Shown here piece by piece: positions 53,263 through 57,860 of a DNA stretch of 62,124 nt (the stretch's first letter is position 1; each line of letters opens with the position of its first letter). This DNA comes from an uncultured Candidatus Saccharibacteria bacterium (GTDB taxonomy: Bacteria > Patescibacteriota > UBA1384 > 2-12-FULL-50-11), in NCBI GenBank assembly GCA_964599405.1, contig CAZRED010000003.1, positions 1 to 62,124 of the forward strand. Reading direction: 5' to 3'. Below the pieces are notes generated by a model. The model was not told the origin of the DNA. It ran no database searches and worked only from the letters and a program-made list of their open reading frames with translations. The translations under genes and the position numbers were made by a program.

Positions 53263-53793
53263 ATGCCACTACTTAGAGCCCAAAAAGAAAGTTTAGTTGA
53301 AACCTTAGTGACCGATTTGAAAGAATCGCGCATCGCGCTGGTCGTTGCCTACACCCACTTGAATGCCAAAGCCAACCTTCAGTTGCGCGACAAAGCCTTT
53401 GAGCAAAGCGGCAAGCTGCGCATGCTCTCCAACAATCTGTTGAAGCTGATTTTAAAGAACCTTGGCCAAGACAAAGAGTTAGAGATCCCCGAGCGTCAGC
53501 TCGCCCTGGCCTACGGCTTCCAAGATGAAGTTACCGCTGCCAAACTGTTGGCTGACTTTGCCAAAGAAACCGAAGCGCTGGAAGTACTGGGCGGTTGGAT
53601 TGACGGTAAATTCTTCACTGCTGCTGATGTCAAAACCCTCGCTTCGCTGCCAAACAAAGAAACCCTGCAAGCCCAAGTTGTCGGCCGTTTGGCTGGCTTA
53701 ATCCAGGGTCTGGTTTACAACTTAAACTTCCCGCTGCAGCAATTTGCTTTTGTGGTGAAGGCAGTTGAGCAGAGTAAGGGAGAAAACAGTTAA
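53263..53793 (+). CDS. rplJ: 50S ribosomal protein uL10
   Basis: K..LVETL, LRDK, NNLLKL, LASLPNKETL. Confidence 0.93.
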   Translation: MPLLRAQKESLVETLVTDLKESRIALVVAYTHLNAKANLQLRDKAFEQSGKLRMLSNNLLKLILKNLGQDKELEIPERQLALAYGFQDEVTAAKLLADFAKETEALEVLGGWIDGKFFTAADVKTLASLPNKETLQAQVVGRLAGLIQGLVYNLNFPLQQFAFVVKAVEQSKGENS

Positions 53794-53798
53794 GTACA

Positions 53799-53822
53799 GG
53801 ATATGTGTTTAAACACATATCC
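53799..53822. repeat. perfect 24-bp palindrome (GTTTAAAC family copy 1)
   Basis: ggatatgtgtttaaacacatatcc. Confidence 0.9.
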
Positions 53823-53886
53823 GTCCAAAAAGAATATAAATTAGAAATAAGATATATAAGCATAATAAAGAAATAAAGGAGAAAAA

Positions 53887-54276
53887 ATGAGTGAAAAAGT
53901 AGACAAAATAATTGAACAGGTAGAGAAGTTGTCCGTGATGGAGTTGTCCGAGCTGGTTAAAGGCTTGGAAGAGAAATTTGGCGTATCGGCTATGCCGATG
54001 ATGGCCGCAGGTGCTGCTCCGGCAGCTGGTGGTGCTGCCGCTGGTGCGGAAGCCGCTGAAGAGAAGGCCGAGTACACCGTGGTCCTAGCCGCTTCCGGCG
54101 ACCAAAAGATTGCTGTGATTAAGGCCATCCGCGAAATTAAACCAGATCTAGGCTTGAAAGAAGCCAAAGACTTGGTTGACGCTGCTCCCAAAGAGCTCGG
54201 CACCATGAAGAAAGAAGACGCTGAAACCGCCAAAACCAAACTCGAAGAAGCCGGCGCTAAGGTTGAATTGAAGTAA
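53887..54276 (+). CDS. rplL: 50S ribosomal protein bL12
   Basis: [42 protein letters not shown]. Confidence 0.98.
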
Positions 54277-54291
54277 ACTTTTCCTTACCGG

Positions 54292-54330
54292 AAAACAAAA
54301 AACCCTGCCTTTGGTGGGGTTTTTTGTTTT
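54292..54330. terminator. bidirectional intrinsic terminator
   Basis: aaaacaaaaaaccc...ggggttttttgtttt. Confidence 0.85.
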
Positions 54331-54372: not shown

Positions 54373-54951
54373 ATGAGTAGCGCATCATTTCGTGAGAATG
54401 TTAATATTATCATTGGTTTTTTAGTTCTAGCATTTTCGGTATACGGTTACTCTGCAACCCAGCACGACAAGTTTGTTAATGATGAAATGCACAGAGAGGA
54501 GACTGCACTAAGGAACCAATTAAGCGGCTACTGGGTGTATAAACTTACTACGAAAACGTCGGATTTGGGAAGGTATATAAATATTGAATTGGGATTCCTT
54601 GTGACAATGGGAGTAGATGAAAATCTTAGCGTGGGTGGGGTGGCATATAAATGGAGAGAAAAGAACTCTGACGGAGAATTTATTTACACAAGGAGTAACA
54701 GGGCTAGAGCAGATATTACTGGTAGCATATTTGAAAATCAACGAATAGAGCTTAGATGGGTTATGGTCGACAAGAGATATGGTGAAAGTATAGTTATTGT
54801 TAACGGACAAGTTGGGGAAGGATATATTATTGGAACATTTGCTAGCGACGTTGCATTCCAGAAAGGGGATTTTTGCGCAAAGATTATTGGTGTGGGTATT
54901 TCTGAGGATTTAACTTATAGATTTTTGGATTGCTCAATACTACTCCCATGA
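54373..54951 (+). CDS. membrane-anchored beta-rich hypothetical protein
   Basis: one N-terminal TM then LSGYW and alternating beta strands; AT-rich DNA. Confidence 0.6.
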   Translation: MSSASFRENVNIIIGFLVLAFSVYGYSATQHDKFVNDEMHREETALRNQLSGYWVYKLTTKTSDLGRYINIELGFLVTMGVDENLSVGGVAYKWREKNSDGEFIYTRSNRARADITGSIFENQRIELRWVMVDKRYGESIVIVNGQVGEGYIIGTFASDVAFQKGDFCAKIIGVGISEDLTYRFLDCSILLP

Positions 54952-55412
54952 CCGATATACTTAAGATCTTTATCACCAGCGGCCTCACGATACTTGGCGG
55001 TTTACTTACTTACACTGCAGGGCAATCGTTCGTAAAATTTTTTATTGAGCCCTACTCTAAATATAGAGAATTAATTGGGGAAATTGATCACGGGTTAATT
55101 GTTTACGCCAACATTATCTTTAATGAATGTTTCATTGAATCCCCAGAACAGCTTAGGAGTGAGGCTATTTCCGTAAGAAGTAAAATCCGCGATTGGTCTG
55201 GTAGATTTTCTTCACTATATAACCAGCTGACACTAAGAGAGCGTCTGGTTATTGCTAAGTTAGTGCCCGATAAAAATGAGGCAAAAATTGTTGGACAGTC
55301 GCTGATTCGTTTATCGAACCTAGCTGGCAACGTGAACGGGGTGGGAAGTAATTTAGAAGTGATTATTTCTGACGAAGAAAAAGTAAGATTACTTCTGGGT
55401 ATACCAAAATAG
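54948..55412 (+). CDS. hypothetical membrane protein
   Basis: ATGA overlap with previous stop; N-terminal TM; AT-rich DNA. Confidence 0.65.
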   Translation: MTDILKIFITSGLTILGGLLTYTAGQSFVKFFIEPYSKYRELIGEIDHGLIVYANIIFNECFIESPEQLRSEAISVRSKIRDWSGRFSSLYNQLTLRERLVIAKLVPDKNEAKIVGQSLIRLSNLAGNVNGVGSNLEVIISDEEKVRLLLGIPK

Positions 55413-55489
55413 TTATTACTCTCTTATGAGACTTATTGTTGAAAACTGGGAAAAGTTTTACAAAACCGGCTCGAATTTTTGACGGGAGT

Positions 55490-55667
55490 AAAGAAAAGGC
55501 CCCGGCCGTGAAGACCGGGGCTTGTGTCTGACCCCATGATGATCCACTTCGCATTGGAGAGCGTCAGTAACGAAGCACCGTGCATTAACCTTAACCACCA
55601 GGTATTGGCACGGCCGGATCTAAAGACCCACTGACGTCAAGCCGGAGTCCTGACGGCTTTACGAAGC
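55490..55667 (-). ncRNA. candidate structured ncRNA with own promoter and terminator
   Basis: TTGACA (55702-55697)-17 bp-GAAAAT; three nested stems; GC hairpin + U-tract at 55523-55490; no convincing ORF. Confidence 0.5.
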
Positions 55668-55720
55668 AAATGTATTTTCTCTCCCCACAAACAACTTGTC
55701 AATAATAACCTCTTTGAACG

Positions 55721-55748
55721 GAAAGTATGTGTTTAAACACATACTTTC
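55721..55748. repeat. perfect 28-bp palindrome (GTTTAAAC family copy 2)
   Basis: gaaagtatgtgtttaaacacatactttc. Confidence 0.9.
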
Positions 55749-55800
55749 AGGTAAAGAAAAACGACTCGTCCATGGAGGACGAATTGTTGTGGTTCGTGGG

Positions 55801-56136
55801 TCATTCGGGCAGATGGTACTTGTTCGGGGCATTCGGATCGAGGAAAAGACGCTTACCAAGCTCTGTTGGTCGGTATTCCCAGCGTGTGTATTGCGCCTCG
55901 TCCGATCCTTTTTCTTCAAAAGACAACAGTCCGTGTTCCTCTGCAAATGTTGCGGCTTTGATCTGAAGCTCTTTCCTACGGTCATCGATGTAGATGTAAT
56001 CTGCCTTGCCGTCACGGAGAGCTTTGACAAAAGAGACTAAATAGTCGTGCTCCTTAGGGAACAGGGTCCGACATTGTTCCCAGAAGTTAGGGGTCTGAAT
56101 GGCCGGGAATCCGGTAGGTGCTAATTCTTTAGACAT
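55801..56136 (-). CDS. hypothetical protein
   Basis: TTGATA-17-TAAAAT promoter, GGAGG RBS, downstream terminator. Confidence 0.75.
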   Translation of the reverse strand: MSKELAPTGFPAIQTPNFWEQCRTLFPKEHDYLVSFVKALRDGKADYIYIDDRRKELQIKAATFAEEHGLLSFEEKGSDEAQYTRWEYRPTELGKRLFLDPNAPNKYHLPE

Positions 56137-56879: not shown

Positions 56880-57752
56880 CTAGAGCTTTTGATTCGCTGC
56901 TTCGAGCTTGCGCTTTTCCGCATCCTTACGGGCAATGCGTTTTTGCTTCTCATTAGCAAGTTCATCCAAGTACCGGGTTAGTCGCCTGGCTTTGTGCGGC
57001 ACCGGAAGTTTCTGGGGGAGGGTCTTACCGGGAAGCGGCAAGGAATCGCTAGGAACAAAGTATGTTCCATACGCCCAGTCCCAAATTGGCAGAAAGAAAA
57101 ATCCGCCGATCGCCTGGTTAATCCTCATGTTTGCGTGATGCATCAAGTGGAAACCGTAAAGCTGGCGAATAAGATGGAACCTCTCCACCCACTTTTTCCA
57201 ATACCGCTCATAGCTTAGATGCATAGCGGCGTGATAGACCTCGTAGAGCACCAGGGAGAAGGTGACGGAGCAGTTACAGCTAATCAGCACTGGCGAACCA
57301 GGGAAAATTATCTGCAACGGCAAGAAGAAAATGACGGTAAAAATCAAGCAAAACAAACCCAATGCGTAGACTGGGAACGTTGCAGACTCGTTTTGATGCG
57401 AGTGCTCAATCTCGTATTCGTTCTTGATTGTTGTAACGTCGGTTAGGTCGTGGTGATGGGTGTGGGTGTCGCACTGCGACCGGAGCCACCGCCAAATCAC
57501 TGTATGGAGTAGGTAGCGGTGGTAGAACCACTCGAACTTGGAAAGAAACAGATGCCCCCCCAAGAACCAGCCAACGTAGTTGTACCAGGCGGAGTGAAAT
57601 TGAACGTCGTATGTGGTTATGCCGACGCCGACACCAGCCGATATGAAACCAGCCTGTGCTGCCAAGAACTGGATAAGGTAGAGAGTGAGGAACTTGCCGT
57701 GCTTAAACCGCGCATTCTCATCTCTGAGTGATAAGAGCTTTTCGATTGACAT
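56880..57752 (-). CDS. fatty acid hydroxylase / sterol desaturase family protein
   Basis: His boxes WFYHRYLLH, HTHHH, YEVYHAAMH, FHLMHH with TM pairs; ATG 57752 preferred. Confidence 0.82.
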   Translation of the reverse strand: MSIEKLLSLRDENARFKHGKFLTLYLIQFLAAQAGFISAGVGVGITTYDVQFHSAWYNYVGWFLGGHLFLSKFEWFYHRYLLHTVIWRWLRSQCDTHTHHHDLTDVTTIKNEYEIEHSHQNESATFPVYALGLFCLIFTVIFFLPLQIIFPGSPVLISCNCSVTFSLVLYEVYHAAMHLSYERYWKKWVERFHLIRQLYGFHLMHHANMRINQAIGGFFFLPIWDWAYGTYFVPSDSLPLPGKTLPQKLPVPHKARRLTRYLDELANEKQKRIARKDAEKRKLEAANQKL

Positions 57753-57860
57753 AGTGAACACCTGTAAATTAAGGTTCAGCCTAACGTAATTATACGTCTT
57801 TTTGATGAAAAAATAATTAAAAGAGAACGGCTCGCCGAGAGGGCGAGCCGCGAAAGGGGG

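What the first reader, a model, noticed from the sequence alone, without database searches (positions are those of the whole stretch)
55490..55702. Stand-alone ~175-nt structured RNA as one of the palindrome-bounded modules
A near-consensus promoter and a strong terminator enclose no credible ORF but three nested stems: aagccg/cggctt (55639-55659), cgtcagt/actgacg (55562-55636) and ccgtgc/gcacgg (55578-55613). Looks like an independent small RNA (antitoxin, 6S-like or unknown); it converges on the AT-rich membrane genes.
Basis: partly seen in the sequence, partly recalled or inferred. Interest (0 to 1): 0.6.

Follow-up and report, generated by a model that had tools for sequence, protein, structure and literature searches.

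The report
Orphan candidate small-RNA gene, unproven
A promoter and a strong terminator on the minus strand of this tiny-genome bacterium enclose about 175 bases with no gene for a protein, so a small RNA is probably made there, but nothing like it was found in any other genome searched, no RNA data exist, and its function stays unknown.

Summary
The sequence features are real and lie on the minus strand. They are TTGACA-17-GAAAAT (55702..55674), about 175 nt without a credible ORF, and a 9-10-bp GC-rich terminator (55521..55499) with the genome's usual TTTTCTTTAC tail. The promoter shares a layout with two other promoters of this genome: an 18-bp palindrome lies 18-23 nt upstream. A discrete transcript is therefore likely.

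The claim that the RNA is structured is weak. The three stems exist, but without the terminator the fold scores z = -1.6. No Rfam family matches.

Searches by blastn, a covariance model and exact words covered relatives, about 400 genomes of the phylum, public metagenome, genome and viral contigs, phages and plasmids. Each found only the window itself or chance or junk matches. A same-genus genome has the upstream gene abutting rplL, with no RNA unit. Only the source sample holds this DNA, so expression is untested.

- **6S:** no model match and no rod-like fold.
- **SRP RNA:** no model match, and no Ffh or FtsY was found.
- **Antitoxin:** no toxin partner.
- **Targets:** none stands out.

Verdict: a species-specific orphan sRNA candidate in a variable region behind rplL. 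It may equally be a functionless leftover cassette. Low interest.

The parts
55674..55702 (-). Sigma-70-type promoter-like site, TTGACA (55702-55697), 17-nt spacer, GAAAAT (55679-55674). The inferred start is near G 55667.
   Evidence: 10 of 12 matches; one of 10 strict matches genome-wide, and one of 3 that lie just downstream of the palindrome. The start site is inferred from spacing, not measured.
55493..55667 (-). Predicted non-coding transcript of about 175 nt.
   Evidence: It spans from the inferred start to the U-tract of the terminator. No credible ORF. No RNA data exist.
55562..55636 (-). Core helix cgucagu/acugacg. It encloses hairpin ggguc/gaucc (55616-55629) and helix ccgugc/gcacgg (55578-55613), whose tip is accu/aggu (55588-55603).
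   Evidence: pair probabilities 0.64-0.78, about 0.9 and 0.98-1.0. This core appears in the minimum-energy and centroid folds.
55639..55659 (-). Hairpin aagccg/cggcuu with a 9-nt loop UCAGGACUC. It lies beside the core, not nested in it.
   Evidence: probability about 0.3. It competes with a pairing of GACUCC with GGGGUC.
55522..55542 (-). Linker before the terminator. It is unpaired in the 186-nt centroid fold and the second-best fold, but partly paired in the minimum-energy folds.
55489..55521 (-). Intrinsic terminator: 9-10-bp stem (8 G-C), loop of 5, tail CUUUUCUUUAC.
   Evidence: The tail is the same as behind the neighbouring 111-aa and 293-aa genes.
55714..55755 (.). Palindrome. The 18-bp core TATGTGTTTAAACACATA lies at 55726-55743, 23 nt upstream of the -35 hexamer.
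   Evidence: There are 8 exact copies in the genome, and the family occurs in 10 of 19 genomes of the taxonomic family.
55764..55784 (-). Terminator of the upstream 111-aa gene (55801-56136, minus strand). It separates that gene from the RNA unit.
   Evidence: The gene is conserved at 56% identity in same-genus genome G003.
54373..55412 (+). Two overlapping AT-rich ORFs (192 aa and 160 aa), each with a hydrophobic N-terminal segment. They converge on the RNA unit and have no plus-strand terminator of their own before it.
   Evidence: sequences. G+C 0.37-0.41 against 0.496 for the genome; no plus-strand terminator between 55412 and 55766; the 160-aa protein was found in no relative.

Best explanation
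This is an autonomous, species-specific transcription unit on the minus strand that makes a non-coding RNA of about 175 nt.

RNA polymerase with the housekeeping sigma factor would start near 55667, from a promoter built like two other promoters of this genome, with the family-wide 18-bp palindrome about 20 nt upstream of the -35 hexamer. Transcription would stop at a strong intrinsic terminator at 55499-55521.

The RNA would fold into a branched core (helix 55562-55636 with two inner hairpins) plus a 5' hairpin. About 20 nt lie between the core and the terminator hairpin, unpaired in some of the predicted folds only. That is the usual layout of a trans-acting regulatory small RNA.

I take it to be a young, lineage-restricted riboregulator that works without Hfq or CsrA. 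Its target is unknown.

- Shown: the signals, the absence of an ORF and the absence of relatives.
- Inferred: that it is transcribed, that the fold forms, and any function.
For: - Promoter and terminator are on the same strand, about 175 nt apart.
- The strict promoter pattern is rare: 10 hits in 716 kb against 1-6 in shuffles. Three of the 10, including this one, sit 18-23 nt behind the exact palindrome. The other two drive a real conserved gene (111 aa) and a 151-aa ORF on contig C4.
- The terminator has the genome's signature tail and is among the strongest of its kind.
- No credible ORF. No protein-level relative of the most protein-like frame in 400 other genomes of the phylum. No trace of a paralogue or pseudogene in the genome itself.
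- The core stems are stable in the ensemble.
- There is no downstream gene on the same strand, so it is not a leader or riboswitch.
- The upstream gene has its own terminator.
Against: - There is no homologue anywhere, so no covariation. The searches were blastn in 40 relatives and 400 genomes of the phylum, a covariance model in 100 relatives, in the 18 other genomes of the family with laxer filters and in 18 rplL loci, and exact words in genome, metagenome and viral contigs.
- Same-genus genome G003 has the upstream gene directly against rplL, without this unit.
- The fold without the terminator is not significant (z = -1.6).
- G+C is unremarkable.
- No target stands out. The best duplex is -43.8 kcal/mol, and 3 of 18 shuffled RNAs do as well. 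The neighbouring genes rank 35 to 850 of 888.
- No Hfq or CsrA was found in the genome.
Confidence: 0.45

Rival explanations
1. It is a functionless leftover. A standard junction module (terminator tail, palindrome, promoter) and a terminator were left around about 150 nt of decayed or internally deleted cassette DNA, in a recombination-prone region. An RNA may be made, but it does nothing.
For: - The region behind rplL holds different ORFs in each of the 16 other family genomes for which downstream sequence was held (a 17th locus had only 247 nt).
- The unit is absent from G003 and from all other genomes searched.
- The junction module is repeated in front of three successive units and aligns only over about 58 columns.
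- A foreign AT-rich two-gene insert lies right next to it.
- The fold is not significant without the terminator.
- Earlier notes of this scan report recombination scars elsewhere in this window. These are leads, not checked here.
Against: - No remnant of a coding frame, and no similarity to any gene of this genome or of the fetched loci by blastn-short or tblastx.
- No match of the 40-aa plus-strand frame in 400 other genomes of the phylum.
- No start codon with a good ribosome-binding site behind the promoter.
- Both signals are intact and of top quality, in a 716-kb genome with little spare DNA.
Confidence: 0.3
2. It is not a separate transcription unit. The promoter-like site is a chance or non-firing match, and the stretch is only a long spacer, or a 3' tail of the 111-aa gene's transcript that ends at a second terminator.
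For: - By the loose consensus, promoter-like sites are common: 4 found against 2.4 +/- 1.8 expected in 1.6 kb.
- The -10 hexamer GAAAAT departs from TATAAT at two positions.
- No expression data exist.
Against: - The strict pattern is rare, and its link with the palindrome (3 of 10) is far above chance.
- The 111-aa gene has its own terminator with the canonical tail, 260 nt upstream.
Confidence: 0.12
3. It is a cis-antisense controller of the foreign two-gene membrane module. The mRNA of ORFs 54373-55412 has no good terminator of its own and would read into the RNA gene. The two convergent transcripts would then pair over up to about 175 nt, and the pair would be degraded or transcription would collide. 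This resembles type I toxin-antitoxin pairs that overlap at their 3' ends (bsrG/SR4 and txpA/RatA of Bacillus subtilis, recalled, not looked up).
For: - The layout is convergent.
- No plus-strand terminator-like site lies between 55412 and 55766. In the plus direction the shared hairpin is followed by CTTGTGTCT, a poor T-tract.
- The neighbours are small proteins with hydrophobic N-termini. There is a weak language-model lead to Cap15-type membrane effectors (score 0.76-0.77) and a match of the 160-aa protein to phage family phrog_7512 (E 1.1e-5).
Against: - The RNA region (G+C 0.535) differs in composition from the insert (0.37-0.41), so they probably did not arrive together.
- The neighbours are 160 and 192 aa, not short toxin peptides.
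- No match in the defence-system library.
- Overlap of the transcripts is not shown.
- No complementarity to the start regions of these genes (ranks 563 and 821 of 888).
Confidence: 0.08
4. It is an mRNA for a very small protein, for instance the 10-codon frame that starts at UUG near the 5' end, or the AUG at 55585.
For: Short frames exist.
Against: - The frames from the AUGs at 55585 and 55554 run through the terminator hairpin and have no stop before the transcript would end.
- No GGAGG-type site at the right distance.
- The translations look random and have no relatives.
Confidence: 0.05

Closest known systems
Species-restricted trans-acting small RNAs with their own promoter and intrinsic terminator, such as island-encoded sRNAs of enterobacteria (general class, recalled from knowledge, not looked up here)
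   Same: A stand-alone sigma-70-type promoter, 100-200 nt without an ORF, stem-loops, a linker and a Rho-independent terminator. It lies in a variable region and is absent from close relatives.
   Different: No expression data, no chaperone (no Hfq or CsrA found), no predicted target above background and no second copy or relative anywhere.
6S RNA (Rfam RF00013)
   Same: Similar length, about 175-185 nt. No 6S gene was detected elsewhere in this genome, so the slot is formally open.
   Different: No model match even at E <= 10. The minimum-energy fold is branched, not a rod with a central bubble. It ends in its own terminator. It is not conserved even within the genus, whereas 6S is a conserved housekeeping RNA.
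RNA antitoxins of convergent, 3'-overlapping type I toxin-antitoxin pairs (SR4/bsrG, RatA/txpA; recalled)
   Same: An RNA of about 180 nt transcribed towards the 3' end of a gene for a membrane protein.
   Different: No short hydrophobic toxin ORF. The partner genes are 160-192 aa, of different base composition and of unknown function. The overlap is not shown.
The neighbouring palindrome-headed units of the same locus (111-aa and 144-aa genes)
   Same: The same junction: terminator tail TTTTTCTTTAC, the 18-bp palindrome, then about 20 nt. For the 111-aa unit a TTGAYA-17-KAAAAT promoter follows.
   Different: Those units carry protein genes. This one carries no ORF, and its body matches none of them.

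Membership tests
6S RNA (RF00013) | Match to the family's covariance model | tested here: not met
   No match at E <= 10 in 55300-55900 or in the whole genome. Note that the model rings above its cut-off in only 4 of 14 control genomes.
6S RNA (RF00013) | Rod-like fold: 5' and 3' ends paired, with a large central bubble | tested here: not met
   The minimum-energy and centroid folds are branched. A rod-like fold appears only as a suboptimal structure 1.7 kcal/mol above the minimum, and it uses up the terminator.
Bacterial SRP RNA (RF00169, RF01854) | Model match and presence of the partner protein Ffh | tested here: not met
   - No model match.
- No Ffh or FtsY: SRP_SPB none, SRP54 best 20.3 bits against a cut-off of 22.7, TIGR00959 17 bits against 473, tblastn with E. 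coli Ffh best E 0.11.
- SecY was found as a positive control.
- The loss of SRP in these bacteria is published (PMC4508563 and PMC8080830, passages read).
Type I antitoxin RNA | Short hydrophobic toxin ORF overlapped by, or complementary to, the RNA | tested here: not met
   No such ORF on the opposite strand or nearby. The sok model match is noise (12.1 bits against 59).
Type III antitoxin RNA (ToxI-like) | Tandem repeats of a short unit next to an endoribonuclease toxin gene | tested here: not met
   No tandem or direct repeats inside the unit. No neighbour matches a defence or toxin family.
Riboswitch or transcription-attenuating leader | A regulated gene downstream on the same strand | tested here: not met
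   Behind the terminator the minus strand holds only the antisense of the 160-aa ORF. No riboswitch model matches.
Trans-acting small regulatory RNA (generic class) | Own promoter, own terminator, no ORF | tested here: met
Trans-acting small regulatory RNA (generic class) | A discrete transcript is made | not testable with these tools
   Only the source DNA sample holds the stretch, and no RNA run is listed.
Trans-acting small regulatory RNA (generic class) | Conserved structure (covariation), or a target with complementarity above background | tested here: not met
   There are no relatives, so no covariation. The crude duplex screen of 888 start regions does not exceed shuffled RNAs. No complementarity of 15 nt or more anywhere in the genome.
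DGR template repeat | A near-copy (variable repeat) elsewhere in the genome | tested here: not met
   blastn-short against the genome itself finds nothing longer than 14-17 nt.

The most novel reading that the evidence does not exclude
The RNA is a working riboregulator of a kind not yet described in ultra-small (Patescibacteria) bacteria. It would be switched by the family-wide palindrome, possibly the operator of a conserved XRE-type regulator. It would act as a cis-antisense brake on a horizontally acquired, AT-rich two-gene membrane module, whose unterminated mRNA reads into it. That would be an RNA-based silencer of foreign, possibly toxic or defence genes in an organism without Hfq or CsrA.
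Probability: 0.07. Interest if true: 0.55.

Novelty: new member of a known kind. Interest (0 to 1): 0.22.

Why it matters
Regulatory RNAs of Patescibacteria are almost unstudied. The one literature search I made for small RNAs in this group listed no paper naming it among its 12 top rows. A validated stand-alone sRNA in a 0.7-Mb genome without Hfq or CsrA would therefore be a useful first example. As it stands this is a single orphan candidate without expression or conservation evidence, so by itself it changes little. The more general point from the locus is the reusable junction of terminator tail, palindrome and promoter that heads several units, this one included.

Tried and rejected
**Known RNA families**
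- Rfam at gathering thresholds gave only 5 tRNAs in the window.
- The permissive scan of 55300-55900 gave 10 matches, all with E >= 0.8 and far below their cut-offs.

**Homologues by DNA**
- Own genome: only the window itself.
- 40 relatives: only a 28-nt match to the terminator part, at two places in G012.
- 400 genomes of the phylum: one 28-nt match (89% identity) in G376. It lies inside a 514-aa membrane-protein ORF, and tblastn shows no wider similarity, so I rejected it as chance.

**Homologues by covariance model** (single-sequence model R1)
- 18 rplL loci plus the window: only the window itself.
- 100 relatives: only G000 itself.
- The 18 other genomes of the family with laxer filters: only G000 itself, plus a 13.8-bit, E 1.98 match.

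**Public collections**
- Exact 20- and 23-nt words found nothing in genome, metagenome or viral contigs.
- blastn against phages and plasmids found nothing.
- Records of this genome, or of one very near it, may be left out of these collections.

**Through neighbouring proteins**
- The 111-aa alignment found nothing in metagenome contigs.
- In genome contigs it found only the G003-equivalent record.
- The 160-aa protein found nothing in viral contigs or in 40 relatives.

**Sequencing runs**
- No RNA holder is listed. Only the probable source sample holds the stretch.
- Contigs of its three runs show one contig across 54335-57000 and no variants.

**Other tests**
- Pseudogene or paralogue: blastn-short and tblastx against the genome and the fetched loci found nothing. 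The 40-aa plus-strand frame found nothing in 400 other genomes of the phylum.
- G+C as a marker of a structured RNA is not discriminating: rank 45 of 133.
- The island shows no flanking direct repeats.
- Target screen: the first script timed out. A smaller one gave no target above shuffles. It ignores the RNA's own folding and uses crude gene starts.
- The plus strand as the coding strand of the RNA is rejected. It has no promoter-like site, only a poor terminator, and a weaker fold.

Supplementary files of papers were not consulted.

Full report
**Setting**

The window is contig C3 of a 716-kb, 13-contig genome that is 93.7% complete. The one related public record is titled a Patescibacteria group MAG. 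Only one permafrost metagenome sample holds this DNA, and it is probably the source. The finding lies behind the rplJ-rplL genes (53263-54276).

Read on the plus strand, the order is:
- rplL and its terminator (54292-54330);
- two overlapping AT-rich ORFs of 192 and 160 aa (54373-55412);
- the unit in question, on the minus strand;
- three minus-strand genes of 111, 144 and 293 aa.

**What is in the sequence**

- A promoter-like site TTGACA-17-GAAAAT lies at 55702..55674.
- A terminator lies at 55521..55499, with 9 pairs (8 G-C), a loop of 5 and the tail CTTTTCTTTA.
- With a start near 55667 (inferred from spacing), the transcript would be about 175 nt.
- The three stems are present. Their ensemble probabilities are 0.98-1.0 (ccgugc/gcacgg), 0.64-0.78 (cgucagu/acugacg) and about 0.3 (aagccg/cggcuu). 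The last competes with another pairing.
- Two stems are nested and the third lies beside them. A further hairpin (55616-55629) sits inside the core.
- No frame is credible. Stop-to-stop frames reach at most 67 aa. The two AUG frames run through the terminator without a stop, there is no GGAGG-type ribosome-binding site, and the translations look random.

**Are the signals more than chance?**

By the loose consensus, promoter-like sites are common: 4 found against 2.4 +/- 1.8 expected in 1.6 kb.

A strict pattern, TTGAYA-N16-18-KAWAAT, occurs only 10 times in the whole genome, against 1-6 in ten local shuffles. Three of those 10 lie 18-23 nt downstream of an exact copy of the palindrome TATGTGTTTAAACACATA. 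These three are:
- the promoter of the conserved 111-aa gene;
- a promoter in front of a 151-aa ORF on contig C4;
- this one.

The genome has only 8 exact copies of the palindrome and two more within 2 mismatches, so this link is far above chance. Two of the three are neighbours and may share descent.

The terminator carries the tail TTTTCTTTAC, which recurs behind many hairpins of this genome. A hairpin precedes 27 of 160 TTTTCTTT sites, against 129 of 2000 random positions. The three successive minus-strand units share terminator tail plus palindrome, about 58 aligned columns, and nothing beyond. I therefore think a discrete transcript is likely.

**Is it a structured RNA?**

The evidence here is weak.
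- With the terminator included, the fold has z = -2.6 (1 of 200 shuffles as good).
- Without it, z = -1.6 (15 of 200).
- The plus strand folds less well (z = -2.13).
- G+C of the stretch (0.535 against 0.496 for the genome) does not stand out among ORF-free gaps: rank 45 of 133.

**Is it a known RNA?**

- No Rfam family reaches its threshold in the window other than five tRNAs. The permissive scan gives only noise.
- In the genome, RNase P RNA and tmRNA are found. No 6S and no SRP RNA are found.
- SRP RNA can be excluded. The genome has no Ffh or FtsY by four tests, with SecY as a positive control.
- The same absence holds in relatives. No small SRP RNA in any of 26 genomes. One partial 25.8-bit SRP54 match among 41 genomes. 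No SRP_SPB in any of 151 genomes of the phylum.
- This loss is published for Parcubacteria and noted for many CPR bacteria (PMC4508563 and PMC8080830, passages read).
- 6S is not supported: no model match, a branched fold, its own terminator and no conservation.

**Relatives**

None was found by any route.
- blastn in 40 relatives and in 400 genomes of the phylum gave only short chance matches. One lies in a membrane-protein ORF and was checked and rejected.
- A single-sequence covariance model found only G000 itself in 100 relatives. With laxer filters in the 18 other genomes of the family it added one 13.8-bit match (E 1.98). In 18 rplL loci plus the window it found only the window.
- Exact words, and blastn against phages and plasmids, found nothing.
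- The upstream 111-aa gene has one relative, in same-genus genome G003 at 56% identity. There it converges directly on rplL, with about 100 nt and two terminators between them. That genome has neither the RNA unit nor the AT-rich ORFs.
- The DNA behind rplL holds different ORFs in each of the 16 other family genomes for which downstream sequence was held (a 17th locus had only 247 nt), so this is a variable spot.
- The two AT-rich ORFs (G+C 0.37-0.41) look foreign. The 160-aa protein matches a phage family of unknown function (phrog_7512, E 1.1e-5).
- Language-model look-alikes of both proteins are unnamed clusters, mostly labelled Pseudomonadota. The 192-aa protein has a weak Cap15-like lead. 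These are leads only.

**Function**

- There is no same-strand gene downstream, so it is not a leader.
- No repeats, so it is not ToxI-like.
- No near-copy in the genome, so it is not a DGR template.
- No short hydrophobic ORF opposite.
- A crude duplex screen against 888 start regions gives -43.8 kcal/mol at best. Three of 18 shuffled RNAs do as well, and the neighbours rank 35 to 850.
- No Hfq or CsrA was found.
- The module's mRNA has no good plus-strand terminator before the RNA gene. A convergent antisense relation is therefore possible but unshown.

**Verdict**

The claim of an independent RNA gene is plausible from the signals. The claim of a structured RNA with a function is untested. 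My odds are:
- 0.45, a working orphan sRNA;
- 0.30, a functionless leftover cassette;
- 0.12, no separate transcript;
- 0.08, a cis-antisense controller of the foreign module;
- 0.05, a mini-protein mRNA.

It is at most a new member of a known kind, and of low interest until expression or population data exist.

Noticed in passing
G000 C1:121067-121449 (locus L055); G006 C4 (locus L052, 957-1394): The 18-bp palindrome may be the operator of a conserved XRE-type regulator.
- In G006 two copies flank a 123-aa helix-turn-helix gene, and one abuts its start.
- In G000 the homologue (41.5% identity, E 4.8e-24, HTH_3 49.2 bits) starts 2 nt after a palindrome variant.
- Against this: the flanks outside the core keep complementarity with different letters from copy to copy, which points to a hairpin.
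   Followed up: partly
Family genomes G003-G018: The palindrome family occurs in 10 of 19 genomes of the taxonomic family, at up to 2 mismatches. The reversed-pattern control gives 0. Symmetric double changes (GTG/CAC to GGG/CCC or GCG/CGC) keep it palindromic.
   Followed up: partly
G000 C1:3510-3527 (locus L051, 611-628): One exact palindrome copy lies inside the RNase P RNA gene. It sits in a 41-nt insert where the class A model has a 10-nt hairpin tip near the 3' end, so here the palindrome is transcribed as part of a stable RNA.
   Followed up: no
Whole genome G000 and relatives: No Ffh, FtsY or SRP RNA was found in G000.
- SRP RNA: none in 26 genomes.
- SRP54 GTPase: one partial match among 41 genomes.
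- Ffh M domain: none in 151 genomes of the phylum.
This is already published for Parcubacteria/CPR (PMC4508563, PMC8080830).
   Followed up: yes
window 54373-55412: A two-gene AT-rich insert (G+C about 0.38) encodes 192-aa and 160-aa proteins with hydrophobic N-termini.
- No Pfam, NCBIfam (above the cut-off) or PADLOC family matches.
- The 160-aa protein matches phrog_7512 (E 1.1e-5).
- The 192-aa protein has a weak Cap15-like look-alike (0.76-0.77).
- It may be a mobile membrane-effector pair.
   Followed up: partly
window 56880-57761 (minus strand): The 293-aa protein matches the NCBIfam domain TrhA_N_extend (E 8e-43, 147 bits, below the 200-bit cut-off) and has histidine-box motifs.
   Followed up: no
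Downstream of rplL in 17 family genomes (loci L021-L037): The 1.5 kb behind rplL holds a different set of ORFs in each of the 16 genomes for which it was held; for the 17th (L036) only 247 nt were available. This is a hotspot of gene turnover next to a ribosomal-protein operon.
   Followed up: partly
Genome-wide, G000: Intrinsic terminators of this genome share a tail, TTTTCTTT followed by A/T and often C. Eleven of the 27 hairpin-preceded sites read TTTTCTTTAC. The same tail follows the G003 homologue of the 111-aa gene.
   Followed up: partly
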